DNA from: a virus
Taxonomy: Duplodnaviria > Caudoviricetes
IMG/VR virus record: IMGVR_UViG_3300028809_000012
Coordinates: 942 to 64,941 of that record
Strand: one strand, 5' to 3'
DNA length: 64,000 nt
The notes under the pieces are model-generated. The model did not search any database, had not been told where the DNA came from, and saw only the letters and a list, made by a program, of their open reading frames with translations. Position numbers and translations under genes: made by a program. This document shows, piece by piece, positions 8,120 through 55,146 of this stretch (position 1 is its first letter; each line of letters begins with the position of its first letter).

Positions 8120-8173
8120 GGTTATGTCGCAGTGCAATTTGTATACTACCAACCGGAAGCAAGGAAACCGAAG

Positions 8174-9463
8174 ATGAGCACCATCGAGAGGGAAGCGCTG
8201 AAGGAGCTGGCAAGCGGGGAGCGTACGGACGTGACGTTCTTCTCGTCGCGCCACGGAGCCGCCGTGGCCGGGAGGGACGAGGATTGGGCCGATCTGTCGG
8301 CGCGTACGTCCAATGCGCTGCGCAGCGAAGGCTTTGCCACACCCGGCGCGGCTGCGCGACTGTCGGACGAAGCGCTGCTGCTGATTCGCGGATTCGGCAA
8401 GAAGGGGCTGGAGGAACTGCGGACGTGGAGCCAGTATCCGCAGAGTAGGCATTCTGCTTTTGTTGCGGGTCTTGCCATGGAGATGGAGGAAAGGACGGCC
8501 CGTGGCGAGTTTGATCTGGATTCTTTCCCGTCCTCCGCCCCCGAGGCGCCCCCGCAGTCCGAGAACGACCGCATGCTGCGATTCCTCGCGGACGGCTATG
8601 AGCAGGCGCAGCGGAAGCGGATCGGGTGCGGCGAGCAGATTCGCGCTGTGCTTCAGGGCCGTGACGAGACGTGGGGTGAGGGGACGGAAGAGATCGCGGG
8701 AGTGGAGGAGATGCTGGGCGCCATCGCCAGCGGCGAGGAGAGCGGGCCGGTGCCGATCTTGGGTCGCATGTACCACCGGGCGTGGTCCGAGGAGCAGGAG
8801 CTTCGCAAGGAGATGGAGCGCGCGCTGAAGCATCACGTCTGCTGGCCGTGGCTGTCGCAGGTGAAGGGGATCGGTCCCACGCTCGCGTGCAAGCTGCTGG
8901 CGCGGCTGGACCCCCGGAAGGCGACCACGGTGTCCGCGTTTTGGGCGTACGCGGGCCTCGCCACGGTGCCCGGTGAGCGCTACGCCTGCGCTGCCTGCGG
9001 CATGACGCGGGACTGGCCGGTGGGGTACAACGTGACCGGCAAGCATCAGGCGCTTGGCAGCACCGCCTCGTGCACGGGCTCGCTGGTGAGGGTGGCCGGA
9101 CCGGAGGATGGCGTGCGGGCGGCCCAGCCCAAGCCGGCGCGAGGACAGAAGTCCACCTACGACGCGTACGTGAAGAAGCAGATGTACCTTGTGGGCACCG
9201 GCTTCCTGAAGGTTCCGCGGGGCAAGTACGAGCAGGTGTACCGCGCCGAGCGGGCGAAGCTGGACCGTGAGCGCGTGGGCTGGGCGGACGGGCGCAAGCA
9301 CCTGACGGCACTGCGCAAGACGGAAAAGCTGTTCCTGTCGCATCTCTGGCAGGTTTGGCGTGAAGCGCTGGGCCTGCCGGTGGGGATGCCCTACGCCATC
9401 TCCGTGCTGGGCCATTCCGAGGCGTCGTACGTGGGGCCGTGGCAGATGGTAGGGCGGGACTGA
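8174..9463 (+). CDS. Tas-like (IS110/Nop-fold) RNA-binding protein with N-terminal RNAP alpha-CTD-like domain and Zn-ribbon insert
   Basis: AAGGA RBS at 8161; LSARTSNALRSEG...LSDEALLLIRGFGKKGLEELR (alpha-CTD-like); WLSQVKGIGPTLACKLLA...SAFWAYAGL...YEQVYRAERAKL...HLTALRKTEKLFLSHLWQVWR (IS110 C-terminal/Nop-like); no DEDD RuvC; dual-repeat array directly downstream. Confidence 0.8.
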   Translation: MSTIEREALKELASGERTDVTFFSSRHGAAVAGRDEDWADLSARTSNALRSEGFATPGAAARLSDEALLLIRGFGKKGLEELRTWSQYPQSRHSAFVAGLAMEMEERTARGEFDLDSFPSSAPEAPPQSENDRMLRFLADGYEQAQRKRIGCGEQIRAVLQGRDETWGEGTEEIAGVEEMLGAIASGEESGPVPILGRMYHRAWSEEQELRKEMERALKHHVCWPWLSQVKGIGPTLACKLLARLDPRKATTVSAFWAYAGLATVPGERYACAACGMTRDWPVGYNVTGKHQALGSTASCTGSLVRVAGPEDGVRAAQPKPARGQKSTYDAYVKKQMYLVGTGFLKVPRGKYEQVYRAERAKLDRERVGWADGRKHLTALRKTEKLFLSHLWQVWREALGLPVGMPYAISVLGHSEASYVGPWQMVGRD

Positions 9464-9471
9464 GGTTGTGG

Positions 9472-9583
9472 GGCGAGCCGTTACAGACGAGTAATCCGTG
9501 CACATGAAGCGAGCCGCCGATACCAGAGTAACCCGTATGCTAAGAGCGAGCCGGTAGAGTGTAGAGTCACCCGTACGTCCTGA
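9472..9583 (+). ncRNA. TIGR-like array A (3 units)
   Basis: (a)gcgagccg-spacer-agt(a/c)a(t/c)ccg-spacer; GCGAGCCG at 9473, 9509, 9546; starts about 9 nt after the Tas-like stop. Confidence 0.8.
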
Positions 9584-9614
9584 ACGTAACCAACTGGACA
9601 TAAGGCAAAGACCG

Positions 9615-19598: not shown

Positions 19599-20039
19599 AT
19601 GCCCACGGACGAGACGGTGAGAGAGGACACGCCCGCCACGGAGCCGCGGAAGTGGTGGGGGGACGGCAGCCCGTGGTGGTACGACGTGCTGGGCACCGGC
19701 GGCATGTACAAGGCGGTGCGCGCGCTGGTGCGCCGGATGGTGGACGAGGCTCGCAATCCCGACGAGACGGAAGAGTTCCCGCACCACACGTGGGCGCAGG
19801 CGCTGTGCATCGAAGTGCTGTCTTGCCTGCCCACCCCAGCCGCCCCCGTGGGGAGCGAGGCTGCACACAGCACGATCCGGCGCGCGCACGTCATGCTGGA
19901 CCGTGCCAAATCGGAGCACGGGTTACGTCGCGCCACGAAAGGCGAGCGCGAAGACCTGCTCTCCGACTACACCTTGCCGGACGGCTCCGGCTTCACGTGC
20001 GTCTCGCCCGCCCCCTCCGGTGCACAGCAGGGACGGTGA
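19599..20039 (+). CDS. Hypothetical protein
   Basis: GGAGG RBS, operon context. Confidence 0.5.
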   Translation: MPTDETVREDTPATEPRKWWGDGSPWWYDVLGTGGMYKAVRALVRRMVDEARNPDETEEFPHHTWAQALCIEVLSCLPTPAAPVGSEAAHSTIRRAHVMLDRAKSEHGLRRATKGEREDLLSDYTLPDGSGFTCVSPAPSGAQQGR

Positions 20040-20207
20040 ACCAGGGTCCAAGCCTTCCGCTTCGTCCGTGGATTGTACATCACGAGGACGCGGAAGGCGT
20101 GTCCCATGTGGATGTGGTGTGGCATTACAGCGGCAGTCTGGCGGTAGAGACTCTGGCGCCGTACGTACTGTTGGATGTACGCGAATTTCCACCTGAGATG
20201 ATGGAGG

Positions 20208-20567
20208 ATGAAGATGAGCGACGAGTGGATCATGGTGGCGGTGATGCTGGGTTCGATGCTGGCGGCTACGTTGTCGGTGGAGTGGGCGCGTCGCGAGAAC
20301 CAGCGCCGGAACAAGATCGTGAGCGAGCTGTTGCAGTCGGCAGAGAAAAGGGAGCGGGAGTTGTGGGCCTTGTGGCGCGACCTGTCGCGGGCCGAGAAGG
20401 AGGCGAGCGCCACTACGTTGGAGAAAGTGATGCGCATGCAGCGGGAGGGCTTCATCGCCATGCCAGAAGCGGAGCCGGCAGTGGTTCACGAGGGCGAGGA
20501 GCAGGAAGGCGAATGGTACGCGCCGGAGCCCATCAATTGGCGGACGCCTCCTCCCGACTCTGCGTAG
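20208..20567 (+). CDS. Membrane-anchored coiled-coil protein
   Basis: N-terminal TM helix then heptad region. Confidence 0.5.
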   Translation: MKMSDEWIMVAVMLGSMLAATLSVEWARRENQRRNKIVSELLQSAEKRERELWALWRDLSRAEKEASATTLEKVMRMQREGFIAMPEAEPAVVHEGEEQEGEWYAPEPINWRTPPPDSA

Positions 20568-20802
20568 TCACCGTGGAGGACGTGGCGAACGTACCGGAGA
20601 AGCAGAGGCGCCGACACGCGGTGGAGATGGTGCTGTCGGATCTGGAGGCGCAGGGCTGCGTGCTGCTGACGACGGGTGCGTTGCGGCTGCTGGCACCGCT
20701 GCTGGGTGAGGTGCACGAGCGTGTTCCGCTGAAGGAGCCGGTGCAGGTGAGAGGAAGGAGCCTGTTTGTCATTCACCCGCAGTAGCCGAAGGAGAAAGCA
20801 GC

Positions 20803-21063
20803 ATGATGGAGAACCTGATCGTCATCTGTGTGTCAGTGATCGTGGGCGCGTTCGCTGGACTGTTTGCCTTGGCGATCCTGGGTGAGTTAAGACCCGACCG
20901 CAAGGCGGCGCGCGCCGCGATAATCCGTGAAGCGTTATTGGAGAGAGCGCGTCGCAATGGCCATGGTTTGACCGTGCTGGAGAGGGAAGTTGACCGATTC
21001 GCAGGGCAGGGGCAGACGGGCCCTCCATCCATCCGCGGCCAATCGTCGCGTGCCGCCCCATGA
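20803..21063 (+). CDS. Small membrane protein
   Basis: AAGGAG RBS; N-terminal TM. Confidence 0.5.
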   Translation: MMENLIVICVSVIVGAFAGLFALAILGELRPDRKAARAAIIREALLERARRNGHGLTVLEREVDRFAGQGQTGPPSIRGQSSRAAP

Positions 21064-21106
21064 AGACGAGCCCAGGTCCATGAACTAGCGACGCGTCGTA
21101 ACGTGG

Positions 21107-21183
21107 CCCTTGACTTCTCATATAGCCCAAGTTAACTTAGGTACAGTGAAGTTAACCAACCCACAGCACGGGGCAGGCGGAGC
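21107..21183 (+). promoter_or_regulatory. Diverged third copy of the promoter cassette (TTGACT..TAACTT)
   Basis: cccttgacttc...cttaggtacagtgaagttaaccaacccac..gggcag.cggag matches the 108-bp repeat core. Confidence 0.75.
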
Positions 21184-21594
21184 ATGAGCACGACGACGGC
21201 GAGGAAGGCGGGCATCTGCTGCAACTGCAACGAGCCGTTCGCGGCGGGCGACCCGATCCGCTTCACCCGCGAGACGCGAACCGTGCACCTGGATGCGAAC
21301 TCGTGGTCGCGCGCGTGGAACAAGCCGCGGCACGCTCACGCCTGCCATAACGCCGCCATGGTGGCCGCATACCTCGCGAGCGTCGAGGAGCGCCGCGAGA
21401 GCCTGCGCCAGCAGGCGGCGTTCATGAGGGAGACCATCGGGGCCGACGCGTTCGAGGCCCGCCGGAGTCGGTTCGAGGAGTACCAGAGGCCGAAGTTCGA
21501 GGCGCTGGACGCCGAGGAGGCCCACATCCGCGAGCACGGCCATCCGTACCCCGAGGAGGTGGCCGCCAAGGCCGCCGCGCGCCTTTCAGCCTGA
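21184..21594 (+). CDS. Hypothetical Zn-binding protein
   Basis: CCNC...HACH; follows cassette RBS. Confidence 0.55.
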   Translation: MSTTTARKAGICCNCNEPFAAGDPIRFTRETRTVHLDANSWSRAWNKPRHAHACHNAAMVAAYLASVEERRESLRQQAAFMRETIGADAFEARRSRFEEYQRPKFEALDAEEAHIREHGHPYPEEVAAKAAARLSA

Positions 21595-21631
21595 CACCTT
21601 CCCCTCCACCCTTACACTGGCAGGCGACGAG

Positions 21632-21967
21632 ATGAGCGAGACGACCACGCTGCGGTTCGAGGGAGCGAGCGACGACACGTTCGGCTGGCAGCAGGACGAA
21701 TACGACAACTGCGCCAGCGGGCGACCGATCGTGTGGGAGGTGAGGACGCCGGACGGAGCGGGGCTGCACGTCTGGGGGATCTACGGGGCCGACGCGCCGG
21801 TGCGCATCGCATGCTGGACGGTGGGAGTGCAGCAGCTGAACGAGGACGTTCCGATGCCGGACTGGCCCGTCCGTCTCGAAACCGCGACGAACGGATACTC
21901 ACCCGTGCTGGTGATCGAGGTCCCGTCCGAGGACGTGGCCGTGCGGTGTCTCAATGCCAACGCCTGA
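21632..21967 (+). CDS. Hypothetical phage protein
   Basis: MSETTT start module; FEGASDD motif. Confidence 0.6.
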   Translation: MSETTTLRFEGASDDTFGWQQDEYDNCASGRPIVWEVRTPDGAGLHVWGIYGADAPVRIACWTVGVQQLNEDVPMPDWPVRLETATNGYSPVLVIEVPSEDVAVRCLNANA

Positions 21968-21983
21968 CGCACAGGGCATGACG

Positions 21984-22262
21984 ATGAGCGAGACGACGAC
22001 GACGGAGGAGCGGGCGCCGAAGCCCCTGACCGCACTTCAGCAGACGGTCGTGGATCTGTTTGAGTGCTGCCCGGATGGGTGGGTCGAGGACCGCGACGGG
22101 CGGTGGTGGTTCAAGCACGGGCCGGCCGGGTCGTACGTGCGCGTGGACGGGCGGGCGGTCTACACACTTCAGCAGCGAGGCGTGCTGGCGAGTAGACCCC
22201 ATTCATCGCGTCCGGGGGCAGCCCTCTGGCGGTTGAACCCCTCGCGGGTGCCCTCTCGATGA
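21984..22262 (+). CDS. Hypothetical protein, MSETTTTEER start
   Basis: Shared 5' module. Confidence 0.5.
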   Translation: MSETTTTEERAPKPLTALQQTVVDLFECCPDGWVEDRDGRWWFKHGPAGSYVRVDGRAVYTLQQRGVLASRPHSSRPGAALWRLNPSRVPSR

Positions 22263-22591
22263 GCGCCGCGGCGGCGGGGCAGGAGCCTATCGCATGGATG
22301 GTAGAGATCCTGTGGAATGGCGAACCCTCCAGCGAGCGCGCACACCTCTACCGGAGAGGGCCGGAGGCGGACCGCATTATCGAACAGTACCGGACGTGGG
22401 ACGGGGATCTGACCGCCCGCATCACCCCGCTCGTCGCCGCCGATCCGCAGCGGGACCACGACCTCACGTCGCTGGTGGCGGAGCTGGCGGCGCTGCCCAC
22501 GCTCGGGGAGTGGCAGGCCGCGCCGGGCGGGGACATCAACTCGCGCCTCGACGCCCTGATCCTCCGCGCCCGCACCCTGATGGGAAAGTAA
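22259..22591 (+). CDS. Hypothetical protein with LAALPT...LDALILRARTL C-terminal module
   Basis: Shared 3' module. Confidence 0.55.
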   Translation: MSAAAAGQEPIAWMVEILWNGEPSSERAHLYRRGPEADRIIEQYRTWDGDLTARITPLVAADPQRDHDLTSLVAELAALPTLGEWQAAPGGDINSRLDALILRARTLMGK

Positions 22592-22702
22592 ACCAGAAGG
22601 GCTGGGCTTCTGGTCTACCCCAAAATCAACACACACACTACGCTCTCCGGGTAGCGAGGCGACCGCCAGCCGCGGCGCCGTCCACCCGGAGAGCGTCCTT
22701 CC

Positions 22703-25000
22703 TTGCACGAGCACAACGACCTCACCACGCCCGTAGGCGACCACGGCCCGGCGCCGTACCCCACCGTGCTGCCCGGCACGCGTGACTGGAACGACAATGC
22801 CCGCCGCTCCTACGCCGCGTACCTGACCGCGTTGTGGGACGAGCAGACGCAGTACCTCCGCCCGCTCCATCTCGCGTGGCAGCAAAACCTGCTGTTCCTG
22901 GTGGGGCAGCACTGGCACCGGCTGGGACGGGACGGCTTCCGGGTAGACCGCACCGATCCGCTCTGGAAGCTGAAGCCCACCTACAATCTCTGCCTCCCCT
23001 TCTACAACACGTATCTGGCCAAGGTCACGAAGACGCGCCCAGCCACGCAGGTGGTGCCGGCGTCGTCCGACCCCAAGGACATGAAGGCGGCGCAGCTCGG
23101 GGATGACCTGATTGAAGCCAAGTGGACGGAGCTGAAGGCGGCTCGCCGCTACCGCCATTTCTGCGGCTGGACGATCCTCACGGGCAACGGCTACGCGCTC
23201 CCCTTCTGGAACCCCCGCGCCGGCCGCATCAAGCGGCTGGAGGCGGAGATGGAGTGCCCGGTCTACGAGGCGGACGGGGTCACGCCGCTGCTGGTGGAGA
23301 GCGAGGACGAGCCGGGGATGCTGGTCCCGGCCACCGAGATCCTGACGGTGCCCTACGACGCGGAGGGCGAACCCATGCTGGGCGAGGATGGGCGTCCGCG
23401 TCCGGGGGCCAAGGCGCACGTGGTGGAGGAGGGCGAGGTGGACTTCCGCGTCTACTCGCCGTTCCAGGTGCGCGTCAACCCGGAAGCTACCTGCGACGAG
23501 GACGTGACGTGGTTCATCGTCACGGAGCCCATGAGTCTGCGCGAGATCGCGAAGCGCTGGCCGGAGGCGGCGGCCAAGGTGCAGGCGGAAGACCTGTCCA
23601 CGGTCATGGGGATTCTCTCCACCCTCAGCGGCATGCTGGACGGGCGACTGAGCGACGGCAGCGAGTTCGGCGTCTCGCCGCGGGACGAGCGGCAGAAGAG
23701 CCTGCCACGGGCGCTGGTGAAGTTCTACTACGAGAAGCAGTGCGCCGACTTCCCGGAGGGGCGTCACTGGGTGAGCGTGGGCGACGTGCTGCTGGAGGAG
23801 CCGCAAGATCTGCCGGACGGCCTGTTCCGCCTGATCCACACGCAGGACATCATCGTGCCCGGCCGCTACCACGGCATGAGCAAGCTGGAGGCGGCGGTCG
23901 CGATCAACCGGGAATACAACGAGCTGTCCGCCCGCATCGCGGAGCACCATCGACTGTTCGCCAACGGCAAGTACGCGGTGCCCAATCAGGCGGGGATCAA
24001 GAAGGGCACCTTCACCACGGAGCCGGGCGAGGTGGTGCGGTACACCTACCCGTACAAGCCGGAGCCCATGCCGGTACCGGCGCTCCCCGCGTCCGTGTAT
24101 CAGGAGCGGGAACGCCTGCTGGTAGACTTCGAGCGGGTGACGGGGATGCGGGCGGTGTCGCAGGGCGGGACCACGGGCGGGGTGACGGCTGGCATTGCCA
24201 TCATGCAGCTTCAGGAGGCAGACGACGCGGACCTTGGTCCCTTCCTCGCCTCCGCGGAGGAAGCGGTGGCGGACCTTGCCGGTGCGTGGCTCATCCTCAT
24301 CAAGAACAACTACACGGACGAGCGGCTGTACTACGCCGCGGGGCCGGATCGCCGCTACATGGTGCAGAGCTTCCGCGCCTCCGACCTGGAGGGCGCGGTG
24401 GACGTCATCCCGCAGGCGGGGAGCAGCCGGCCGGGGAGCGAGGTTGCGCGGCAGGCGGTTATCATGGATCTGGCGCAGCGCTTCCCCGTCCTGTTCAACG
24501 ACCCGGAGACGGGGCGGCCCGACCCGGCCCGCTTTGCCCGTGCGCTCCAGCTCGGCGGGCTGGAGGCGGCGTACGAGTCGGAGGACGGCGACGTGGCCGA
24601 GGCCATGCGCATCGAGGAGCAGATCAGCCTGCTCGGCGGCATGGACGGGATGGACGACCCCACGGAGCTGGTTATCCCGCAGCCGTGGCAGAACCTCGCC
24701 GTGCACTACCGCCAGCATCGACGTACGCTGGCCGGCGCTGAGTGGAAGGAGTGGCCGGAGGAAGCGCAGATGGTGTTGCAGCAGCGCTTCCTTGCGGTCA
24801 AGGCTGCCATCGACCAGCAGCGCATGCAGGAGGCCATGATGCTGGCCGGAGGCGCGCCCGGTGGCATGCCGCAGGAGGGCGAGGGCGCGCAGGGTGGCCC
24901 GATGTCCGGCATGGGTGCCGCGCTGGACCCGTTGGGGGCCGAGGCGGACATGCTGGAGCAGGGGCTTGAAGATGCTGCGGGAGGCGGGCTGTTGAACTGA
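22703..25000 (+). CDS. Portal protein (P22-like)
   Basis: 765 aa upstream of scaffold/capsid; GQHW, YN...KVTKTRP, VYSPFQVRVNP, Q-rich/acidic tail; start uncertain. Confidence 0.8.
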   Translation: MHEHNDLTTPVGDHGPAPYPTVLPGTRDWNDNARRSYAAYLTALWDEQTQYLRPLHLAWQQNLLFLVGQHWHRLGRDGFRVDRTDPLWKLKPTYNLCLPFYNTYLAKVTKTRPATQVVPASSDPKDMKAAQLGDDLIEAKWTELKAARRYRHFCGWTILTGNGYALPFWNPRAGRIKRLEAEMECPVYEADGVTPLLVESEDEPGMLVPATEILTVPYDAEGEPMLGEDGRPRPGAKAHVVEEGEVDFRVYSPFQVRVNPEATCDEDVTWFIVTEPMSLREIAKRWPEAAAKVQAEDLSTVMGILSTLSGMLDGRLSDGSEFGVSPRDERQKSLPRALVKFYYEKQCADFPEGRHWVSVGDVLLEEPQDLPDGLFRLIHTQDIIVPGRYHGMSKLEAAVAINREYNELSARIAEHHRLFANGKYAVPNQAGIKKGTFTTEPGEVVRYTYPYKPEPMPVPALPASVYQERERLLVDFERVTGMRAVSQGGTTGGVTAGIAIMQLQEADDADLGPFLASAEEAVADLAGAWLILIKNNYTDERLYYAAGPDRRYMVQSFRASDLEGAVDVIPQAGSSRPGSEVARQAVIMDLAQRFPVLFNDPETGRPDPARFARALQLGGLEAAYESEDGDVAEAMRIEEQISLLGGMDGMDDPTELVIPQPWQNLAVHYRQHRRTLAGAEWKEWPEEAQMVLQQRFLAVKAAIDQQRMQEAMMLAGGAPGGMPQEGEGAQGGPMSGMGAALDPLGAEADMLEQGLEDAAGGGLLN

Positions 25001-25001
25001 G

Positions 25002-25043
25002 GAAGCGCAGGCCGCCTACATGGATGTAGGCGGCCTGCGCTTC
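25002..25043. terminator. Perfect hairpin, likely bidirectional terminator for portal and array B
   Basis: gaagcgcaggccgcctaca-tgga-tgtaggcggcctgcgcttc. Confidence 0.75.
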
Positions 25044-25055
25044 GTTCTTCGCAGT

Positions 25056-25487
25056 TGGGTGACTCCAACGCTACGGCTCGTTCAAGGACAGAAGGGTGGC
25101 TTCCCGGACACGGCTCGTTCTGGTCAATCAGGGTGAGTTAAGTGGCACGGCTCGTTAGAGGGCACCGGATTACTCGTTTGCGCTAGGCTCGCTAGTCTGC
25201 TACGGGTTACTCACAGCTCGCACGGCTCGCTCTAGTAGCGTCGGGTGTATCGTGAACCACGGCTTGCTAGTCGATGACGGGTGTCTCAAAAACGCTGGCT
25301 CGCTCTTTATCCAAAGGGTTACTCGTTCGCTGCGGCTCGTTCCTGCAATACGGGCGTCTCTGAAATTTCAACTCGCTTCGATACGACGGGTGGCTCCTAT
25401 ACTTCGGATCGTTCCCTTTTTTCGGTTTGCTTTGGATACGCCGACTCGCTGGGGTACCACGGGAGACTCGTGCCGTTACGGCTCGCT
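25056..25487 (-). ncRNA. TIGR-like array B (12 units)
   Basis: Edge repeats (plus strand cggctcg(c/t)t) at 25074, 25111, 25148, 25185, 25223, 25260, 25296, 25333, 25369, 25405, 25442, 25479 alternating with cgggtgact-like loop repeats; unique 9-11-nt spacers. Confidence 0.88.
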
Positions 25488-25548
25488 TCGACCTACGGAG
25501 ATGACCTTGGCATGGTGGCACACTTCGGTGAAGGTTGACTCCAGGGCC

Positions 25549-25848
25549 ATGACTGAATCCGACTACAACAACGACCTGCGTGTCCCTCGCTGGGTGCTTG
25601 CCTTCATCCTCCCGGCCATGGGTGTGTTCGTGGCCGTGGCGCGCACCGAGTATCGCACCAACGAGAACGAGGCGGATACTCAGCGCCTCCGTACCGACAT
25701 GGAACGCGCCCTGGATGCGCAGAACGCGCTGGACCGGAATTATGAGGCCCGCTTCTCCGACATGGAGCAGCAGATCCAGTGGCTCTGCGCCCAGCGCGCC
25801 CGCGACGACCAGGAGTCCGGCCGTCAGGGCGCGGGAACCTGTCCCTGA
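25549..25848 (+). CDS. Small TM plus coiled-coil protein (lysis/holin-like?) between arrays B and C
   Basis: MTESDY...WVLAFILPAMGVFVAVA...; GC3-rich codons; layout like 35516 gene. Confidence 0.6.
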   Translation: MTESDYNNDLRVPRWVLAFILPAMGVFVAVARTEYRTNENEADTQRLRTDMERALDAQNALDRNYEARFSDMEQQIQWLCAQRARDDQESGRQGAGTCP

Positions 25849-25856
25849 CGGCCATT

Positions 25857-26084
25857 GGTGACGCTGCATGCTTCCGGTGGCCTCAACTGCTTAGACTCGC
25901 TGCCCTTCGCTGGGTGAATTGGGGTCCTACGGCTCGCTCGCTGCCTTCGGGTGACTCACTAGAATACGGCTTGTTCTGCACTCGGGTGACTACCGTTACT
26001 CAACTCGCTTAGACCATACCGGGTTGCTCGTACGTCACGGCTTGCTCTTATATGATTCGGTTGTCTTTCCACTGTCGGCTCGAC
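25857..26084 (-). ncRNA. TIGR-like array C (about 6 units)
   Basis: Edge repeats at 25893, 25930, 25967, 26001, 26038, 26076 with alternating loop repeats. Confidence 0.85.
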
Positions 26085-26092
26085 AGTGGTTC

Positions 26093-26120
26093 AATCTAAT
26101 CCCTATATGCCGTAAGTCAA
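26093..26120 (-). promoter_or_regulatory. Array promoter TTGACT-N16-TAGATT
   Basis: Predicted start falls just before the first edge repeat of array C. Confidence 0.7.
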
Positions 26121-26130
26121 GAGCAAAGGG

Positions 26131-26145
26131 TATCGACCAAAAACA
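26131..26145. promoter_or_regulatory. Conserved motif TATCGACCAAAAACA, copy 1
   Basis: Also at 35440 and 44280, always intergenic. Confidence 0.7.
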
Positions 26146-26262
26146 GTTTGTCGTACATCCTCACCCACGAGGCATCCACAGTCACCAGTTTCCACCCCGT
26201 TCCCGCAGCACGGTCCACCTCTGGTCCCTGCGGCACAATCATCCGGCACAGAGGCACCACAG

Positions 26263-27396
26263 ATGAGCGACATGCAGGGCACGTCCATCCCCGACGACAT
26301 CTTCGACCGTCATTTCGGCGGCACCGAGGAAGCGGACACGGTGGGCGACGAGACGGGCATCATCCTGAACGACGACGCGGACCTGACCGTGGAAGGCGAC
26401 ACGGACGACCTGGAGGCGCCGGGCGACGGCCTGGGCGATCTGGAGTCCGACGCAGACGACGGCACCGGGGACGACGGCGCGCTGGGTGAGGAGGCGGACG
26501 AGAGCGAGGAGTCCGAAGGCGACCGCGACGACGCGAGCCATGAGGAGGACGACCCCTTCGACCGCAAGGAAATCGACGCCATCACCGACCCCAAGGCGCG
26601 GGCGGTGGCGGAGAAGGCGTACAAGAGTCTGGTGCGGGACTATACCCGCAAGACGCAGGAGGTGGCGGAACTGCGCAAGTCGGCGGAGCGCGAGGTGTCC
26701 ACTGCCCGCGCCTTCCAGACCGAGTACGAGCAGTTCATGGCCGACCTCGCCACGCCCGCGGGAGGAGAGCACTTCCTTCTGACGGTGGCCGACGCCAAGC
26801 CGGAGCTGTTCACCGAAACAGTGTTGGTGGATCTCGGTCTGCGCAACCCGGAGCTGCTGGCCGCCGCCTTGGACCGGGTGCAGGAGCTTTCCGACGATCC
26901 GCGGGCGCGCCGGGTGTTCGACGGCGAACGCTCCATCGCCATGCAGAACCATCGTGAGGGGCAGACGCGGGCCACGCAGCAGCGGGTATCCGAGCAGCGG
27001 GTTGCGGAGACAGTGCGCAGGCTGGTGCAGGACGAGGCGGGCAAGCTGGGCGTGCGCAAGGCGGAGTCCATCGAGATCGTGCAGGACTCGGTGGACAACT
27101 TCCTTCGCAGGGCCGCGGCTGCCGGGACGAAGGTGGTCGCGGCCGACGTGCGGGCGCATGCCGCCAAGGTGGCCAAGCGGCTGGCCGGGGAGCGCAGGGA
27201 CGCCGCCAAGGCCCAGCAGGCGGCGGACCGCAGGGCCCAGCAGGAACGGGTGCGCAGGACGGCGAAGATGGCCGGAGCCCGCCGCACCACACCGCCCAAC
27301 ACCGCGGCTCCGGGCGGGCGCAAGGCAGAGTGGGTGCGCCCGAAGCGCGAGAATGACGTGATCGACAGCATGGTCGATCGTTTCTTCGGAGACTGA
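26263..27396 (+). CDS. Capsid scaffolding protein
   Basis: Acidic N-terminus, DYTRKTQEVAE motif, directly upstream of capsid. Confidence 0.8.
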   Translation: MSDMQGTSIPDDIFDRHFGGTEEADTVGDETGIILNDDADLTVEGDTDDLEAPGDGLGDLESDADDGTGDDGALGEEADESEESEGDRDDASHEEDDPFDRKEIDAITDPKARAVAEKAYKSLVRDYTRKTQEVAELRKSAEREVSTARAFQTEYEQFMADLATPAGGEHFLLTVADAKPELFTETVLVDLGLRNPELLAAALDRVQELSDDPRARRVFDGERSIAMQNHREGQTRATQQRVSEQRVAETVRRLVQDEAGKLGVRKAESIEIVQDSVDNFLRRAAAAGTKVVAADVRAHAAKVAKRLAGERRDAAKAQQAADRRAQQERVRRTAKMAGARRTTPPNTAAPGGRKAEWVRPKRENDVIDSMVDRFFGD

Positions 27397-27464
27397 ATGC
27401 GGCGCCTTGGCATCCTGCCGGGGACGCCTGAACGCAAACGAACCAGAGCAGGAGTCACACGCCC

Positions 27465-28733
27465 ATGGCAGGACGCCAGGTAATCTATGACGACGCGGGT
27501 GCGGCAAGCACCATCGCCGCCTTCCTGAAGGAGGACTACGTCGTCAACGAGATCCGCAACCTCGTCAACACGAGCACGGAGCTGCTGTCGCGGATCAAGA
27601 CCAAGCCCACCGATGTGGGCCTGAACTGGGTGGAGCCGCTGAAGACCGCCACTGCGCAGGGTCACGGAGCGCGGGCGGAGAACGGAGCCCTCCCCAACCC
27701 CGGCTTCGGCCGGTATGACCGCATCACCGGCTACGTGAAGAGCCTCTACGGCTCGTTCTACATCACCGGCCAGTCCATCGCCGCCACCAAGGGGAGCCGG
27801 GCCACCTTCAAGGCCGCGCTGTCGCAGGCGTTGGACGACACCAAGGAGGGCTACCGGCTCTCCAAGCAGCGGCAGAGCTGGGGCGATGGCAACGCCATCC
27901 TCGCCACGGTGGACGGCGCGGTGACGGCCTCCACGACGGTCCCCGTCTCCGACCCCTACGGGCTTACCTACGTGCAGGCGGACCTGGAGGGCTGGGAGAA
28001 GGTGATGTGTCTGAAGGAGAACATGGAGGTGTGGTTCGCCACGGCTGCCGTCTCCCGCACCATCACCGCCGTGGACGAAAGCGCCGGCACCATCACCGTC
28101 AACACGGCGGTCACGCTCACGGACGGCGAGGAGATCCAGCTCGGTTCTTCTTCGACCAACCGCAACGACGGGAACGAGCTGACCGGCGTCTCCGGCTTCG
28201 TCACGGACACGGGCAACTACTTCAACCTGTCGCGCACCGGCCGGGCGGTGCTCCAGTCCACGGTGGTGGACTACACCGCGGCGCCGTACAACAGCGACCC
28301 GATCCTGCTGGAGAGGGCGATGCGGGCCACCAACTCGGCGCTGTTCCGCAAGGCCACGGACCAGAGCGGGCTGGTCGCGTTCTCGAACACGAACGTGCAC
28401 GACACGCACGTCAACAACCTCGTGAGCGAGCGCCGGCAGGTGAACCCGATGGAGCTGAAGTCGGGGCAGGACGCCATCGAGTACGGCGGCAAGCCGCTGG
28501 TGAAGGACAAGGACTGCCCCCCGCAGCGCATGTACTGGCTGCGGATGGATGATGTCTTCTTCCGTCAGATGGGCACCTCCGGCTGGATCGACGACGACGG
28601 CAACATCCTGCACCGCGTCACGACCGGCGAGGGGCGCGTGCACGCCTTCACGGCCGACTGGTGCGAGCACGTGGAGATGGTGACGCGTGCGCCGGCCAAT
28701 CACGCGGTGATCGAGGGCATCACCCGTACGTAA
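27465..28733 (+). CDS. Major capsid protein
   Basis: 422 aa after scaffold with GGAG RBS; LKEDY..I.NLVN, AENGALP, WGDGNA, G.PLVKDKDCP. Confidence 0.8.
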   Translation: MAGRQVIYDDAGAASTIAAFLKEDYVVNEIRNLVNTSTELLSRIKTKPTDVGLNWVEPLKTATAQGHGARAENGALPNPGFGRYDRITGYVKSLYGSFYITGQSIAATKGSRATFKAALSQALDDTKEGYRLSKQRQSWGDGNAILATVDGAVTASTTVPVSDPYGLTYVQADLEGWEKVMCLKENMEVWFATAAVSRTITAVDESAGTITVNTAVTLTDGEEIQLGSSSTNRNDGNELTGVSGFVTDTGNYFNLSRTGRAVLQSTVVDYTAAPYNSDPILLERAMRATNSALFRKATDQSGLVAFSNTNVHDTHVNNLVSERRQVNPMELKSGQDAIEYGGKPLVKDKDCPPQRMYWLRMDDVFFRQMGTSGWIDDDGNILHRVTTGEGRVHAFTADWCEHVEMVTRAPANHAVIEGITRT

Positions 28734-28804
28734 ACAGTACCCGCAGGGCTGTCCAAGGTATTCGGATAGCCCTGCGGGATCACCTGTTACAGTTAATCAA
28801 CGTC

Positions 28805-29317
28805 ATGCTGCCGGCCAGCCTGAACATCAAAGACGTAGAGCGGGAGATCATCGGTCCGCACATCGACCATGATTTCCGCCTTGCTCCTCCGGATGGGGTA
28901 GCGCAGGCGCTTCGGAGCCACAAGCCCACGTTGCGCCTGCTGTTCAACCGGCGCGGTCGCATCATCCCGCACAAGTCGGGCAGCTACGACGCCAACGGCG
29001 AGCCCCGCCGCATCGAGTACGAACCACGCTGGGAGTTGTGGGACACCGACCGTGGCGGCCATGATTACCTTGTTATGGTGCTCCGCGACGAGGACGACAA
29101 CTACCGGGAGCCGGGGATGTGGGTCGTGGAGCGCGTCAAGCGTTTCGACCCCGCCCGCTTCCGCGGCCCGATGGAATGGTCCGCTTACGTGAACGCCTAC
29201 CAGCAGAACCGGCGGGACGTGCACGCGGCGGATTGGGACGGCTTCGTGGACTTCGCGGCCGACTACTGCTGGCGGATGGGCCATCCCATCGCCAACCCCC
29301 TGCAAATCGCATCCTGA
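28805..29317 (+). CDS. Hypothetical protein
   Basis: ORF in structural operon. Confidence 0.55.
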   Translation: MLPASLNIKDVEREIIGPHIDHDFRLAPPDGVAQALRSHKPTLRLLFNRRGRIIPHKSGSYDANGEPRRIEYEPRWELWDTDRGGHDYLVMVLRDEDDNYREPGMWVVERVKRFDPARFRGPMEWSAYVNAYQQNRRDVHAADWDGFVDFAADYCWRMGHPIANPLQIAS

Positions 29318-30075
29318 TGAGCATGAACGACGACATGACCCCAATTCGCGAGATCCGCGAGCGTCCACGCCTCACCAGCGTCACCGGCCGCTCCCGCGAC
29401 GAGCTGGCGGAAGAGCGCGCCGCTGCACGGGCGGACGTCGCTTTCACCCGCGGGCTGGCCGGGAACCCGCGCCATGCACGGATCGGTGCAGTGCCGACCG
29501 TGCAGCCATCGCCCAGCGGGCTAATCGGTCTGGCGCAGGCGCAGGAGATGGTGCAGTCCGCCGTCACGGGTGCGGTGGAGGGTGTGCATGCCTTCTACCG
29601 CGACCTGTTGGGCGAAGAGCGCTGGCGGGATGCCTACACGCGTTACCACTCGATGGGTGCGGTGTCGGTGGACCCGAACCGCGGCATCATCGGTGGGCGC
29701 CCTGCCGCCGAGCACGATACGGAGCCCTACTACCCATATCGTCCCATCGAGGAGGAGCCCTACTTCATGGAATCCAGCCTCGAAGCGGCGCACGACGCGG
29801 ACGAAGGGCGCTCCGGCTACATCAGCTCGTCGGGACGGGACGGCGAGCCGCAGCAGAGCGGCACGGCGCCGGGAGGTGAATCGGTGGAGTTGATGGAAGT
29901 GGAGGACAACGAGCCGGCGATGAGTCAGGCGGACGCTGGCACCCCGGAAGGGGCAAGCAGAGAGGAGGGTCCGCCGTTCCCGTGCGACCAGTGCGACTTT
30001 CAGGCGGGCAGCGCCCGTGGCCTGAAGGCCCACAAGACCACCAAACACCCCACTTCCACCGCTGACGAGGACTGA
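29317..30075 (+). CDS. Hypothetical protein with C-terminal C2H2 zinc finger
   Basis: FPCDQCDFQAGSARGLKAHKTTKH. Confidence 0.6.
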   Translation: MSMNDDMTPIREIRERPRLTSVTGRSRDELAEERAAARADVAFTRGLAGNPRHARIGAVPTVQPSPSGLIGLAQAQEMVQSAVTGAVEGVHAFYRDLLGEERWRDAYTRYHSMGAVSVDPNRGIIGGRPAAEHDTEPYYPYRPIEEEPYFMESSLEAAHDADEGRSGYISSSGRDGEPQQSGTAPGGESVELMEVEDNEPAMSQADAGTPEGASREEGPPFPCDQCDFQAGSARGLKAHKTTKHPTSTADED

Positions 30076-30080
30076 ACCCG

Positions 30081-30614
30081 ATGCCCAACGCTTTCGCCTA
30101 CCCGCACCCGCAGTCCCTCCCGAACGTGTTGAAGGAGGCCCACAACGAGATGCGGGCGACTTCGGTGGCGCTCCGGAACGCGCTGCTGCACCGCGTCCTC
30201 TCCGATGGTGGTGTGGGGATCGGCACCACGGCGAGCAAGGCGCGCTCCAACGCCACCATTCTCTACACCATCAACGGCGAATTCAAGTCCAAGTCCGGCA
30301 CCGACGACCTCTGGACGCTTACCGGCGCCGTGATCCCCGCCGGACAGAAGCGCACCTACCTGCTCCTGTTGGACACCTCTGGTGCCGCCACCGTGGCCGC
30401 GTCGGACACCGTGCTGGCCGCCGGGACCGTAACGCTGCCCGCGTGGCCGGCGGACAAGGCTATCGTCGGCAGCGTTACGGTGAGCAACGGGAGCGGCAGC
30501 AACTTCACGCCGGGTACTACGGCGCTGAACGCGGCCAGCATCACCACCACTTACTTCGACGGGGTTCCGGCGGCCATGCTGCCCGCGGCGCCAACTGAAG
30601 ACGTGGAGAGCTGA
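30081..30614 (+). CDS. Putative head decoration/structural protein
   Basis: Thr/Gly-rich beta protein with FTPGTTAL motif. Confidence 0.55.
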   Translation: MPNAFAYPHPQSLPNVLKEAHNEMRATSVALRNALLHRVLSDGGVGIGTTASKARSNATILYTINGEFKSKSGTDDLWTLTGAVIPAGQKRTYLLLLDTSGAATVAASDTVLAAGTVTLPAWPADKAIVGSVTVSNGSGSNFTPGTTALNAASITTTYFDGVPAAMLPAAPTEDVES

Positions 30615-30676
30615 AGCCCGAAGCCGGAGCGGGCGAAATCTCCGGCACCTATCTTTCTTTCTTCGGAGGCAGTGAG

Positions 30677-31072
30677 ATGGTACACAAGACGACCATGCCC
30701 AAGGCGGATGCGCAGCTCAACGTCTACCACGTAGACTACCGCCCGTCCGCAGACGGCCCCAGCCTCACCGCTGTGGATGCGTACCGGGTGGAGGGTTGGC
30801 GGGAAGACTACGCGTTCTTCGGCAATGCACGGGACTTGTCCGAGGCTACAGTGCTGATCCCCCGCGCGCTGGTGTTTCAGGTGCGCAAGGTGTGTAACGC
30901 GACGGAGCCGCCTGCGAAAGCGGCACGGCAGGTGGAGTATTGGGTTTCGGTAAGCAGCTTGGACCAGACCAACGGCAGCTTTGAAGGCCCGTTCCAGAGC
31001 CGCAGGGAGGCCGAGGAGTACGGCGAGAGGCAGGGTGGCTTGGGGTTGGTCTGGAACGTCGTCACAAAGTAG
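30677..31072 (+). CDS. Hypothetical protein
   Basis: GGAGG RBS. Confidence 0.5.
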   Translation: MVHKTTMPKADAQLNVYHVDYRPSADGPSLTAVDAYRVEGWREDYAFFGNARDLSEATVLIPRALVFQVRKVCNATEPPAKAARQVEYWVSVSSLDQTNGSFEGPFQSRREAEEYGERQGGLGLVWNVVTK

Positions 31073-31137
31073 GCGCACGGAGGCCCGGCGCTGTGGAGCA
31101 CAGCGCCGGGCCGCAACCCCGGATACGAGCAATAGGC

Positions 31138-31362
31138 ATGCAGAGAGAACCCGCGCTGGCGGCTGGCTTCGTGGCTGCGCTGATTGCGCTGGCGGTCGCA
31201 TACGGGATACTGGATCTGGAGCGGGCGCGGCTGTGGAAGGCGCTGGCCGTGGCCGCCCTGCCGCTGCTTCAGGCATGGTGGACGCGGCAGAAGGTGGTGC
31301 CCGTCGCCAAGGTGCACGACGCCGGGATCTCCGTGGCGGAGATAAACGCCAGGGCCGGCTGA
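31138..31362 (+). CDS. Putative holin
   Basis: REPAL start, two TM helices, RQKVVPV tail. Confidence 0.6.
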   Translation: MQREPALAAGFVAALIALAVAYGILDLERARLWKALAVAALPLLQAWWTRQKVVPVAKVHDAGISVAEINARAG

Positions 31363-31448
31363 GGTTCCCGTACCGGCGCCCGGTCAGAGCGCCGGTACGC
31401 ATTCTGTTGATTTTCCGATTCCTGACAGCAAACCAACAACAAACCCAC

Positions 31449-35439: not shown

Positions 35440-35454
35440 TATCGACCAAAAACA
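35440..35454. promoter_or_regulatory. Motif TATCGACCAAAAACA, copy 2
   Basis: 12 nt beyond a leftward TTGACT box (35422-35427). Confidence 0.7.
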
Positions 35455-44241: not shown

Positions 44242-44294
44242 AATCTAATTCGCACTCGTAGGTAGCGCAAGGGGGTTGTTATCGACCAAAAACA
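44242..44294. promoter_or_regulatory. Leftward promoter TTGCGC-N17-TAGATT plus motif TATCGACCAAAAACA copy 3 (44280-44294)
   Basis: Read directly; same arrangement as at 26093-26145. Confidence 0.65.
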
Positions 44295-54837: not shown

Positions 54838-54896
54838 GGTGAAACGTACAACAGGCTACGTGGGGATTCCCCACGTAGCCTGTTGTACGTTTCACC
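54838..54896. terminator. 29-bp perfect inverted repeat between convergent units
   Basis: ggtgaaacgtacaacaggctacgtgggga-t-tccccacgtagcctgttgtacgtttcacc. Confidence 0.7.
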
Positions 54897-54900
54897 CCAA

Positions 54901-55146
54901 AGGACGTCTGTTCTGCTCCGGCTCGATTGGAGGCTTAGGTTATCTTCGGCGGCACGGCTCGTTCTTTGTCTACGGATGCCTATGGTAAAGCGACTCGCTA
55001 GAAAATTACGGATAGCTCGGTGCTTACGGCTCGCTCGTTCTCAGCGGGTGACTCCTTTCGCTCGGGCTCGCTGATACCATTCGGGTTGCTCCAGTATCTA
55101 GGCTCGCTCTGTAGCTTCGGGTGATTCTACTGTGGAGCGGCTCGTC
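54901..55146 (-). ncRNA. TIGR-like array D (7 units)
   Basis: Edge repeats at 54919, 54955, 54991, 55027, 55064, 55100, 55138 (period 36,36,36,37,36,38) with alternating loop repeats. Confidence 0.88.

What the first reader, a model, noticed from the sequence alone, without database searches (positions are those of the whole stretch)
25056..26120. Stand-alone ~18-unit guide array, antisense between portal and scaffold genes, with its own promoter and terminator
Seen: on the minus strand, units AGCGAGCCG-spacerA-AGTCACCCG-spacerB recur every 34-38 nt (12 units in 25056-25487, about 6 in 25857-26084) with unique spacers. A TTGACT-N16-TAGATT promoter sits just upstream of the first unit, a 9-bp hairpin (26069-26089) marks the predicted 5' end and a perfect hairpin (25002-25043) the 3' end. 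Repeats match the array beside the Tas-like gene 16 kb away. Inference: an independently transcribed guide reservoir acting in trans. The 9-nt alternating repeats would probably be missed by CRISPR finders.
Basis: partly seen in the sequence, partly recalled or inferred. Interest (0 to 1): 0.88.

Follow-up and report, generated by a model that had tools for sequence, protein, structure and literature searches.

The report
Remote TIGR guide-RNA array in phage
A soil phage keeps most of the short guide RNAs for its single RNA-guided DNA-binding protein (a TIGR-Tas system) in an array 16 kb from that gene, on the opposite strand and behind what looks like its own promoter, a layout not described for these systems in the papers I could search.

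Summary
On the minus strand, 12 units (25038-25487) and 6 units (25857-26084) alternate two 9-nt repeats (AGCGAGCCG, AGTCACCCG) with variable 7-11-nt spacers, at a period of 34-38 nt. Chance does not explain this (chain score 74.5 against at most 9.5 in 25 simulated windows). It is a dual-repeat TIGR array. The same repeats form a 3-unit array directly behind the only tas gene found (8174-9463), and a further 6-7-unit array at 54902-55146.

The Tas protein has no recognisable nuclease domain, keeps the Tyr/His pair that cuts pre-tigRNA in SpTasH, and folds like solved TasH/TasR. The promoter and both hairpins are present, and the promoter has a paralogue at 44.2 kb.

A close relative has the same three-locus layout: 9 of 18 units are near-identical, 3 diverged and 6 replaced.

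The 5' hairpin is not fully conserved. This is not the only remote array.

No RNA data exist and no targets were found. Trans action from an independent promoter is therefore inferred, not shown. This is a new organisational variant of a known system.

The parts
26093..26120 (-). Sigma-70-like promoter TTGACT-16-TAGATT in front of array block A2a
   Evidence: Only promoter-like site in 24800-26400. Aligns with the leftward promoter region at 44.2 kb. Kept in relative G001.
26131..26145 (-). 15-nt element TGTTTTTGGTCGATA just upstream of the -35 box
   Evidence: The 13-nt core has three exact minus-strand copies at 26131, 35440 and 44280. About 0.24 matches are expected at up to 2 mismatches. 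Each copy sits upstream of a leftward promoter-like region.
26069..26089 (-). 9-bp hairpin at the predicted 5' end; it contains the 5'-truncated first edge repeat
   Evidence: -14.5 kcal/mol, z -4.6. One arm carries a mismatch in G001, so support is weak.
25857..26084 (-). Array block A2a: 6 units of edge, spacer A, loop, spacer B; the last edge is degenerate
25819..25853 (.). Hairpin between A2a and the small gene; possible two-way terminator
   Evidence: -27 kcal/mol, z -3.9. No U-run on either strand.
25549..25848 (+). 99-aa plus-strand gene (hydrophobic stretch plus helical tail, judged by eye) that splits the array
   Evidence: Against G001: 95 of 100 translated positions (99 residues plus the stop) are identical. 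24 synonymous and 5 non-synonymous codon differences; 25 of 31 nt differences are at third positions. No PHROG match.
25038..25487 (-). Array block A2b: 12 units ending in a truncated edge (AACGAAG) that runs into the terminal hairpin
25002..25043 (.). 19-bp perfect hairpin between the portal stop codon and the array end
   Evidence: -43.5 kcal/mol, z -10.6. G001 has a different sequence at the same place that also folds (-35.6 kcal/mol, z -6.6).
8174..9463 (+). tas gene: TasA-type Nop-domain protein with an N-terminal RNAP alpha-CTD-like extension. The ORF is open from 8132; the likely start is Met15.
   Evidence: PDB sequence search: 9mty (TIGR-TasR) 5.4e-18, TasH 1.5e-5. Foldseek: the top 10 matches are all TasH/TasR, E 3.7e-9 to 5e-7. 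phrog_4285 2.6e-40. Pfam RNA_pol_A_CTD 1.1e-6. It is the only copy in the record.
9472..9590 (+). Array A1: 3 units directly behind tas, with the same repeats
54902..55146 (-). Array A3: 6 units plus a degenerate seventh, at the 3' end of a leftward gene set
54838..54896 (.). 28-bp hairpin closing A3
   Evidence: -56.4 kcal/mol, z -12.2
22703..25000 (+). Portal gene (left neighbour)
   Evidence: Pfam P22_portal 1.9e-14; phrog_156 1.1e-22
26263..27396 (+). Head scaffolding-like gene (right neighbour); the major head gene follows at 27465-28733
   Evidence: phrog_3927 6.2e-6 (weak); phrog_14242 2.3e-36 for the major head gene

Best explanation
The stretch is a dual-repeat TIGR array, in two blocks of 6 and 12 units, that supplies two thirds of the phage's guide RNAs (18 of 27 well-formed units).

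Inferred mechanism. The array is transcribed leftward from its own promoter at 26093-26120, against the flow of the surrounding head genes. The only Tas protein found in the record is encoded 16 kb away on the other strand. It binds the AG...CCG box motifs of the precursor and cuts inside the edge repeats with its conserved Tyr421/His428 pair, releasing guides of about 36-37 nt. Each guide then directs a Tas dimer to an 18-bp DNA site read as spacer B followed by the reverse complement of spacer A. This Tas has no recognisable nuclease domain, so the expected outcome is RNA-guided DNA binding (transcription control or blocking) rather than cleavage. The spacers are much more AT-rich than the phage, and no targets occur in the phage itself. 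Targets are therefore probably AT-rich sites such as promoters in the host (likely Gemmatimonadota) or in competing elements.

Shown: array anatomy, repeat identity with the tas-side array, Tas family membership and conserved processing residues, a promoter-like site and hairpins, unit turnover together with constraint between relatives.

Inferred: transcription, processing, trans action, repression and the nature of the targets.
For: Array and chance control.

Same repeats next to tas.

Agreement with published TIGR anatomy (PMC12045711 sections 4 and 8, read). Two alternating 8-12-nt repeats. Spacers of about 9 nt. Both repeats begin and end with the same box pair (here AG...CCG). The first edge is 5'-truncated. 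The last edge is 3'-truncated and followed by a hairpin.

Tas identity.

No nuclease family was found by Pfam. At least 203 homologues were found, of which 120 are listed; most listed ones are 300-340-aa proteins covering query residues about 145-443.

In the alignment, Tyr421 and His428 align with SpTasH Y289 and H296, the residues named as catalytic for pre-tigRNA cutting in PMC13421893. Y421 is at least 90% conserved across 32 homologues.

Promoter: the only site in the region, paralogous to the 44.2-kb leftward promoter including the shared 15-mer, and within a block 99.5% identical to G001.

Evolution (window against G001). The three-locus layout is the same. Of the 18 window units in this array, 9 have 0-3 unmatched spacer letters, 3 have 5-7 and 6 have 10-12. 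In the 16 units shared across all arrays, spacers differ at 18 of 292 positions and repeats at 27 of 288. Third codon positions of the gene lying between the blocks differ at 25 of 100 (Fisher p 1.3e-6 and 2.5e-4).

Spacer GC is 48.6% against 65.7% for the genome (0 of 20000 resamples as low).

Nuclease-free TasA acts as an RNA-guided repressor in the preprint 10.64898/2026.09.09.750476 (section 12).
Against: No RNA evidence of any kind.

No target was found. Near-matches in the phage's own genome are at control level: 6 against 2.9 expected at up to 2 of 16 mismatches, and 3 against 3.85 for G001.

Unit length varies from 34 to 38 nt. [quoted passage not shown] Other phages with this repeat family show 36-nt spacing between successive matches.

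Several units carry degenerate boxes (TTG, TCT or CCA in place of CCG) and score only 7-17 bits.

A hairpin and an opposite-strand gene lie between the two blocks, and block A2b has no promoter-like site of its own. The 12-unit block may therefore depend on read-through.

The terminal hairpin lacks a U-run on the minus strand.

The record is estimated at only 66% complete, so a second tas gene outside it cannot be excluded.

The comparison of 'shared' units is biased, because shared units were selected for similarity.
Confidence: 0.7

Rival explanations
1. Relic or passenger. The blocks are real TIGR arrays by descent. They were copied into the portal-scaffold junction together with accessory genes, but are no longer expressed or loaded into Tas and are drifting.
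For: Variable unit length and degenerate boxes. Interruption by a gene on the other strand. In G001 a protein gene has replaced the first two units of block A2b, and its stop codon overlaps an edge repeat. A portal relative at 46% identity has no insert at this junction, so the region is a recent addition.
Against: The remote units are no more degenerate than the three units beside tas: 11.9-28.7 bits for A1 against 7.3-28.7 bits for A2. Retained units are far better conserved than nearby synonymous sites. The promoter and terminal hairpin are kept in G001, the hairpin with a different sequence. The array holds 18 of the 27 units in the record, so on this reading most of the repertoire would be dead.
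Confidence: 0.12
2. Self-regulation. The guides mainly target the phage's own leftward promoters. Unit 6 of block A2b (spacers GCGTTTTTG and TCATCGACT) would direct the alpha-CTD-fused Tas to the 15-mer upstream of the promoters at 35.4 and 44.3 kb, and more weakly to the array's own promoter at 26.1 kb.
For: In the geometry spacer B plus reverse complement of spacer A, this unit matches 35439 and 44279 with 2 of 16 mismatches and a 1-nt gap, among the best hits in the genome. I derived that geometry from the reported 8-nt 3' overhangs. The same paper reports that 1-2-bp gaps are tolerated. The unit is identical in G001.
Against: Genome-wide there is no excess of near-matches over mis-paired controls. 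In G001 the same guide does not reach 2 or fewer mismatches on G001's own genome, which holds two exact copies of the motif core. By my own count from the sequences, the match at the array's own promoter has 4 of 16 mismatches. The coincidence was found after the fact; my rough estimate of its chance probability is 0.1-0.3% before allowing for other 'interesting' sites (inference, not a tool result).
Confidence: 0.12
3. Antisense or insulator role. The leftward transcript, or its hairpins, mainly acts on the late head operon, for example by transcriptional interference with portal-to-scaffold read-through or by antisense control of the small plus-strand gene. Guide production would be secondary.
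For: The unit lies inside the rightward structural module and overlaps a plus-strand gene in antisense. Strong two-way hairpins flank it.
Against: This does not explain 18 units with conserved box motifs, the same repeats beside tas and at 55 kb, or the cassette-like unit turnover.
Confidence: 0.05
4. Not an RNA array at all: a translated peptide repeat, a CRISPR array, or chance periodicity.
For: Long open frames cross the region on both strands (25252-25848 plus strand, 25267-25869 minus strand). In another phage (G009) the array lies inside a 302-aa open frame.
Against: 17 of 27 periods are not multiples of 3, so no frame is kept. The repeats are 9 nt and of two kinds. No Rfam family matches. 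Simulated windows reach only 9.5 against 74.5.
Confidence: 0.01

Closest known systems
Dual-repeat TIGR arrays next to TasA, e.g. the Flavonifractor plautii locus (Faure et al. 2025, PMC12045711; sections 4-8, 10, 24 and 49 read)
   Same: Alternating edge and loop repeats of 8-12 nt. Spacers of about 9 nt and units of about 36 nt. Both repeats are bounded by the same box pair. The first edge is truncated; the last edge is truncated and followed by a hairpin. The effector is a Nop-domain protein without a nuclease domain. The system is carried by a phage.
   Different: Here the boxes read AG...CCG rather than UG...CCA. Units are 34-38 nt rather than a regular 36. The array is 16 kb from tas on the opposite strand with its own promoter-like site. 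It is one of three loci serving one tas gene. The Tas protein carries an extra alpha-CTD-like N-terminus.
SpTasH of Salicola phage CGphi29 (PMC13421893, passages read; PDB 9w03, 9w04, 21kl)
   Same: Phage-borne dual-repeat system. The Tyr/His pair (Y289/H296) that cuts pre-tigRNA aligns with Y421/H428 here. Best structural matches.
   Different: SpTasH has an HNH nuclease and cleaves DNA. No nuclease family was detected here. Its array is described as lying close to tas.
MbTasA and dead-RuvC TasR acting as RNA-guided transcriptional repressors (Xu et al. preprint 10.64898/2026.09.09.750476; sections 5, 10, 12 and 13 read)
   Same: A nuclease-free Tas gives the most likely mode of action, namely binding and repression. 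The authors list separate promoters for arrays and 'arrayless' tas loci as open questions.
   Different: Their survey took at most 10 kb on each side of tas, so an array 16 kb away lies outside it. The proteins tested for repression were CsTasR and MbTasA; I did not check which array type MbTasA uses. No alpha-CTD fusion is mentioned: zero occurrences of 'RNA polymerase', 'helix-hairpin' and 'fusion' in the main text.
Orphan CRISPR arrays and phage-borne mini-arrays that use Cas proteins encoded elsewhere (recalled from general knowledge; no call)
   Same: The logic is the same: a guide array physically separated from its effector gene and acting in trans.
   Different: An unrelated system. 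Here there are no cas genes and no 25-36-nt identical repeats, and the two half-spacers read opposite DNA strands.

Membership tests
TIGR array, dual-repeat type | Two distinct short repeats (8-12 nt) alternating with two spacers of about 9 nt; unit of about 36 nt; usually 5-15 units | tested here: met
   Repeats of 9 nt each. Spacers of 7-11 nt. Periods of 36-37 nt in 23 of 27 cases (range 34-38). 12 plus 6 units. The length spread is a deviation from the published norm.
TIGR array, dual-repeat type | Edge and loop repeats begin with the same box D and end with the same box C, co-varying between the two repeats | tested here: met
   Both repeats read AG-NNNN-CCG, where TaTIGR has UG...CCA. 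Invariant or near-invariant columns lie in these boxes. The published rule is in PMC12045711 section 8.
TIGR array, dual-repeat type | 5'-truncated first edge; 3'-truncated last edge followed by a terminator-like hairpin | tested here: met
   The first edge is GAGCCG only. The last edge is AACGAAG, running into the 19-bp hairpin. There is no U-run on the array strand.
TIGR array, dual-repeat type | [quoted passage not shown] | tested here: not met
   The nearest and only tas gene found is 15.6 kb away on the other strand. The record does hold a cognate tas gene with the same repeats directly behind it. In 7 of 9 other phage records with this repeat family, tas is adjacent to the array.
TIGR array, dual-repeat type | Transcribed and processed into guides of about 36 nt bound by Tas | not testable with these tools
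   No RNA run is listed for this stretch. Indirect support only: the Y/H processing residues are conserved.
TIGR array, dual-repeat type | Tandem spacers pair with opposite strands of one 18-bp DNA target | tested here: inconclusive
   No excess of composite matches in the phage's own genome, in G001, or in 568 kb of fetched loci once post-hoc selection is allowed for. The host genome is not in hand.
Tas protein (TasA class) | Nop-type RNA-binding domain with coiled-coil, related to TasR/TasH; no RuvC or HNH domain | tested here: met
   The core has pLDDT above 90. The N-terminal 140 residues are modelled poorly, so their fold is not settled.
CRISPR array | Identical direct repeats of about 25-36 nt separated by spacers of similar size; cas genes | tested here: not met
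   There are two different 9-nt repeats. Among the 10 proteins scanned with Pfam and the 10 scanned with PHROGs, none matched a Cas family. The remaining genes of the window were not scanned.

The most novel reading that the evidence does not exclude
TIGR guide arrays can live apart from their effector gene. This phage lineage spreads one guide repertoire over three differently controlled transcription units. One is co-transcribed with tas, one lies behind its own promoter inside the head module, and one sits at the end of a leftward accessory operon. A single nuclease-free, alpha-CTD-fused Tas would then be re-armed with different guide sets at different stages, acting as a programmable regulator of AT-rich promoter-like sites in the host or in rival elements. 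Taken further, arrays may spread as guide-only modules that use a Tas supplied in trans. One phage record rated complete (G006) carries about 40 units of the same repeat family, and no tas gene was detected in it.
Probability: 0.25. Interest if true: 0.8.

Novelty: new variant of a known kind. Interest (0 to 1): 0.62.

Why it matters
TIGR-Tas systems were described in 2025, and their natural roles, array expression and spacer origin remain open. The large 2026 survey looked at most 10 kb either side of tas. Its authors state that sequence alone cannot tell whether arrays have separate promoters, and that one branch of tas genes has no detectable array.

This locus is a concrete case of an array far from tas, on the other strand, behind a recognisable promoter-like site. 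It holds most of the phage's guides and shows cassette-like unit turnover between two close relatives.

If confirmed, three things follow:
- 'Arrayless' tas genes and tas-less arrays should be searched genome-wide.
- The locus offers a natural system for asking whether guide sets are deployed at different times.
- The pair of relatives gives paired arrays in which gain and loss of units can be studied.

Tried and rejected
Tandem Repeats Finder reports no array here; only a 9-nt, 2.1-copy row at 25212-25230.

Megablast of 20000-32000 against 50,697 phage records gave no match.

No RNA holder is listed for 24950-26250. Laying the contigs of four soil DNA runs showed one contig of a possible source run spanning 24911-26348. 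In another sample, contigs cover the portal end, the small gene and the promoter region and stop near the array borders. The uncovered parts are not evidence.

A first self-target scan with 9+9 nt and no gap found nothing at 3 or fewer mismatches. A second scan used 8+8 nt, gaps of 0-4 and both geometries, and gave no excess over mis-paired controls.

A scan of 568 kb of fetched loci gave 8 hits at 1 or fewer mismatches against 3.0 in controls for the correct geometry, and 1 against 4.3 for the wrong geometry. Two of the hits lie in one 37-kb provirus record, G013. Scanning that whole record gave 2 hits at 1 or fewer mismatches against 0.2 expected. G013 was chosen after the fact from 54 loci, so I do not count this as a target.

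The metagenome scan with the portal returned only G001's own contig.

The covariance model with default filters found only 2 matches in 19 Gemmatimonadota loci. Reading the sequence behind those tas genes showed at most single unit-like stretches; I did not pursue this.

Rfam: no match at gathering score in the whole window. One chance hairpin match lies far below threshold.

The AlphaFold model of the N-terminal 140 residues is of low confidence, so the alpha-CTD fold rests on sequence matches only.

Figs S4 and S5 and table S1 of Faure et al., and the TIGRSafari resource, may list multi-locus arrays or this very contig; I could not see them.

Literature on remote or orphan TIGR arrays: the search for 'tigRNA' plus 'orphan' returned one paper, a general review seen in the listing only. 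The search for 'TIGR arrays' plus 'phage genome' plus 'Tas' returned only Faure et al.. Within Faure et al., 'orphan', 'distal', 'multiple arrays' and 'second array' have 0 occurrences. Within Xu et al., 'orphan', 'distant', 'antisense' and 'standalone' have 0 occurrences, and 'distal' occurs only for RNA stems.
Full report
WHAT IS THERE. The record is a single 64,941-bp virus contig with 66% GC; the window covers 942-64941 of it. Read on the minus strand, 25038-25487 and 25857-26084 consist of units of the form edge repeat (consensus AGCGAGCCG), spacer A, loop repeat (consensus AGTCACCCG, usually preceded by G), spacer B. There are 12 units in the first block and 6 in the second. Over all four blocks in the window the periods are 37 (13 times), 36 (10), 38 (3) and 34 (1).

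CHANCE. A chain parser that demands alternating repeats at the right spacing scores 74.5 and 29.5 for the two blocks. The best non-array chain in the window scores 6.5, and the maximum in 25 simulated windows is 9.5. A sequence-only covariance model of 27 units matches only three loci in the window: all 25 of 25 matches at E<=1. The model was built from these units, so the informative result is the absence of hits elsewhere. Tandem Repeats Finder does not see the array. Because 17 of 27 periods are not multiples of 3, the array cannot be a translated repeat.

WHAT KIND OF THING. The anatomy is that of a dual-repeat TIGR array as defined by Faure et al. (PMC12045711, sections 4 and 8). That definition requires two alternating 8-12-nt repeats and spacers of about 9 nt. 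Both repeats begin with one box and end with another, co-varying between edge and loop. The first edge is 5'-truncated, and the last edge is 3'-truncated and followed by a hairpin. Here the boxes read AG...CCG instead of UG...CCA. The first edge is GAGCCG only. The last edge (AACGAAG) runs into a perfect 19-bp hairpin at 25002-25043 (-43.5 kcal/mol, z -10.6). No Rfam family matches.

THE EFFECTOR. The ORF 8132-9463 on the plus strand (likely start Met15 at 8174) matches the solved TIGR-TasR chain 9mty at 5.4e-18 and TasH at 1.5e-5, and phrog_4285 at 2.6e-40. An AlphaFold model built from 32 homologues has pLDDT 82 overall and above 90 for residues 145-440. Its ten best PDB matches are all TasH or TasR (E 3.7e-9 to 5e-7), followed by IS621 recombinase and Nop5.

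Pfam finds no nuclease family. It does find an RNA-polymerase alpha-CTD-like helix-hairpin-helix at residues 54-97 (1.1e-6). Of at least 203 homologues found, 120 are listed; most listed ones are 300-340-aa proteins covering only residues about 145-443. Five of the 32 aligned proteins carry the N-terminal extension.

In the alignment, Tyr421 and His428 align with SpTasH Y289 and H296, which PMC13421893 names as the residues that cut pre-tigRNA. Y421 is at least 90% conserved. Only one tas gene is found in the record, but the record is rated 66% complete.

COGNATE ARRAYS. A 3-unit array with the same repeats starts 9 nt after the tas stop codon (9472-9590, plus strand). A third locus at 54902-55146 on the minus strand has 6 units plus a degenerate seventh. 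It lies at the end of a leftward gene set and is closed by a 28-bp hairpin. The finding's array therefore holds 18 of the 27 well-formed units. It lies 15.6 kb from tas on the opposite strand, so it cannot share a transcript with tas.

EXPRESSION SIGNALS. TTGACT-16-TAGATT at 26120-26093 is the only sigma-70-like site in 24800-26400. It aligns with the leftward promoter region at 44.2 kb, including the -10 box and the start of the leader. Both regions, and a third at 35.4 kb, are preceded by TGTTTTTGGTCGATA; the 13-nt core has three exact copies against 0.24 expected. The promoter lies in a block that is 99.5% identical in the relative.

The 9-bp 5' hairpin exists (z -4.6) but carries a mismatch in the relative, so I give it little weight.

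Between the two blocks lie a hairpin (25819-25853, -27 kcal/mol) and a plus-strand 99-aa gene (25549-25848). That gene is clearly under purifying selection: 24 synonymous against 5 non-synonymous codon differences. Block A2b has no promoter-like site of its own. It would have to be reached by read-through, antisense to that gene, or from a promoter the scan does not recognise. This is the weakest point of the 'one independent transcript' reading.

RELATIVES. One close relative, G001 (an IMG/VR contig of 64,331 bp), has a portal 98% and a Tas about 88-92% identical. It has the same three array loci. At the portal-scaffold junction it carries 9 and 12-13 units. Of the window's 18 units, 9 have 0-3 unmatched spacer letters against G001, 3 have 5-7, and 6 have 10-12, which is the random level. 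G001 has units of its own as well.

In G001 a 116-aa minus-strand gene (phrog_15618) occupies the place of the window's first two A2b units, and its stop codon overlaps an edge repeat. The terminal hairpin is kept, but with a different sequence.

In the 16 units shared over all arrays, spacers differ at 18 of 292 positions and repeats at 27 of 288. Third codon positions of the gene between the blocks differ at 25 of 100 (p 1.3e-6 and 2.5e-4). Shared units were chosen for similarity, so this comparison is biased. Still, the bimodal pattern (near-identical or unrelated) points to cassette-like replacement with constraint on the retained units.

A portal relative at 46% identity has only about 100 bp between the portal and the next gene. 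The 1.26-kb insert is therefore specific to this lineage.

HOW UNUSUAL IS THE LAYOUT. The same repeat family occurs in nine further IMG/VR records, G002-G010. In seven of them a tas gene lies beside the array. Only G000 and G001 show multi-unit arrays at separate, distant loci.

G006 is a record with direct terminal repeats, rated 100% complete. It carries 41 model matches, 40 of them in two arrays at its left end and one isolated match at 23.8 kb. No tas was detected in it with four queries. One of those queries, the phrog_4285 profile, did find tas in two control records.

The survey of Xu et al. took at most 10 kb either side of tas. It names separate promoters and arrayless tas loci as open questions.

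TARGETS AND FUNCTION. The reported 8-nt 3' overhangs imply that a target reads spacer B followed by the reverse complement of spacer A. Gaps of 1-2 bp are tolerated (the geometry is my derivation).

With this geometry there is no excess of near-matches in the phage's own genome or in G001. One unit (spacers GCGTTTTTG and TCATCGACT) matches the 15-mer at 35.4 and 44.3 kb with 2 of 16 mismatches. It is suggestive but not significant genome-wide, and it is weaker in G001.

Spacers have 48.6% GC against 65.7% for the genome (0 of 20000 resamples as low). Tas relatives in genomes come from Gemmatimonadota assemblies in 16 of 19 loci. TasA-type proteins repress transcription when guided to DNA.

I therefore favour RNA-guided binding to AT-rich, promoter-like sites of a Gemmatimonadota host or of rival elements. 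No target is in hand, so this remains inference.

VERDICT. The identification as a TIGR array that is cognate to a distant tas gene is well supported. Independent transcription and trans action are well motivated but untested. The layout is a new organisational variant of a known system.

Noticed in passing
G006 (IMG/VR record behind L024 and L029), positions 213-2308: An 86.8-kb phage record with direct terminal repeats, rated 100% complete. It has 41 matches to the unit model: 40 in two long arrays at its left end and one isolated match at 23.8 kb. No tas was detected with P0001, the G009 Tas, the 32-sequence profile or phrog_4285, and the last of these did find tas in two control records. 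It is a candidate tas-less array.
   Followed up: partly
window 26131-26145, 35440-35454, 44280-44294 (minus strand): TGTTTTTGGTCGATA stands just upstream of three leftward promoter-like regions that are embedded among rightward structural genes. G001 keeps two exact copies of the 13-nt core.
   Followed up: partly
window 25269-25304 against 35439 and 44279: One guide (spacers GCGTTTTTG and TCATCGACT) matches that 15-mer with 2 of 16 mismatches in the correct TIGR geometry. Genome-wide this is not significant, and the match is weaker in G001.
   Followed up: partly
window 8174-8560 (Tas residues 15-140): N-terminal extension with an RNAP alpha-CTD-like helix-hairpin-helix (Pfam 1.1e-6; PDB alpha subunits at E 0.011-0.73). 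It is shared by only 5 of 32 aligned homologues, and its AlphaFold confidence is low. An insertion with invariant C286, C289, H305 and C314 looks like a zinc site.
   Followed up: partly
L004 8789-9139 (minus strand), relative G001: A 116-aa gene of family phrog_15618 (1.4e-22) lies in array orientation between the small plus-strand gene and block A2b, and its stop codon overlaps the first edge repeat. The window keeps only a short remnant of its start, judged by eye.
   Followed up: partly
L037 698-1606 and 2633-3814 (record G009): The array lies inside a 302-aa open frame, so its units would translate as a 12-residue repeat. ParB-like motifs (judged by eye) flank the tas gene. This recalls the ParB association noted by Faure et al..
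   Followed up: no
L050 about 10740-10800; L058 about 10760-10830: Tas homologues in Gemmatimonadota assemblies are followed by at most one unit-like stretch, sometimes inside a hairpin, rather than by an array.
   Followed up: no
G013 (L064 and L065) 15746 and 22220-22272: Two guides, one from the window and one from G001, match a 37-kb provirus record at 1 of 16 mismatches (0.2 expected for that record). G013 was picked after the fact from 54 loci.
   Followed up: partly
window 55160-55432 (minus strand): A small Cys/Thr-rich ORF lies directly upstream of array A3 in the same orientation. It has no PHROG match.
   Followed up: no
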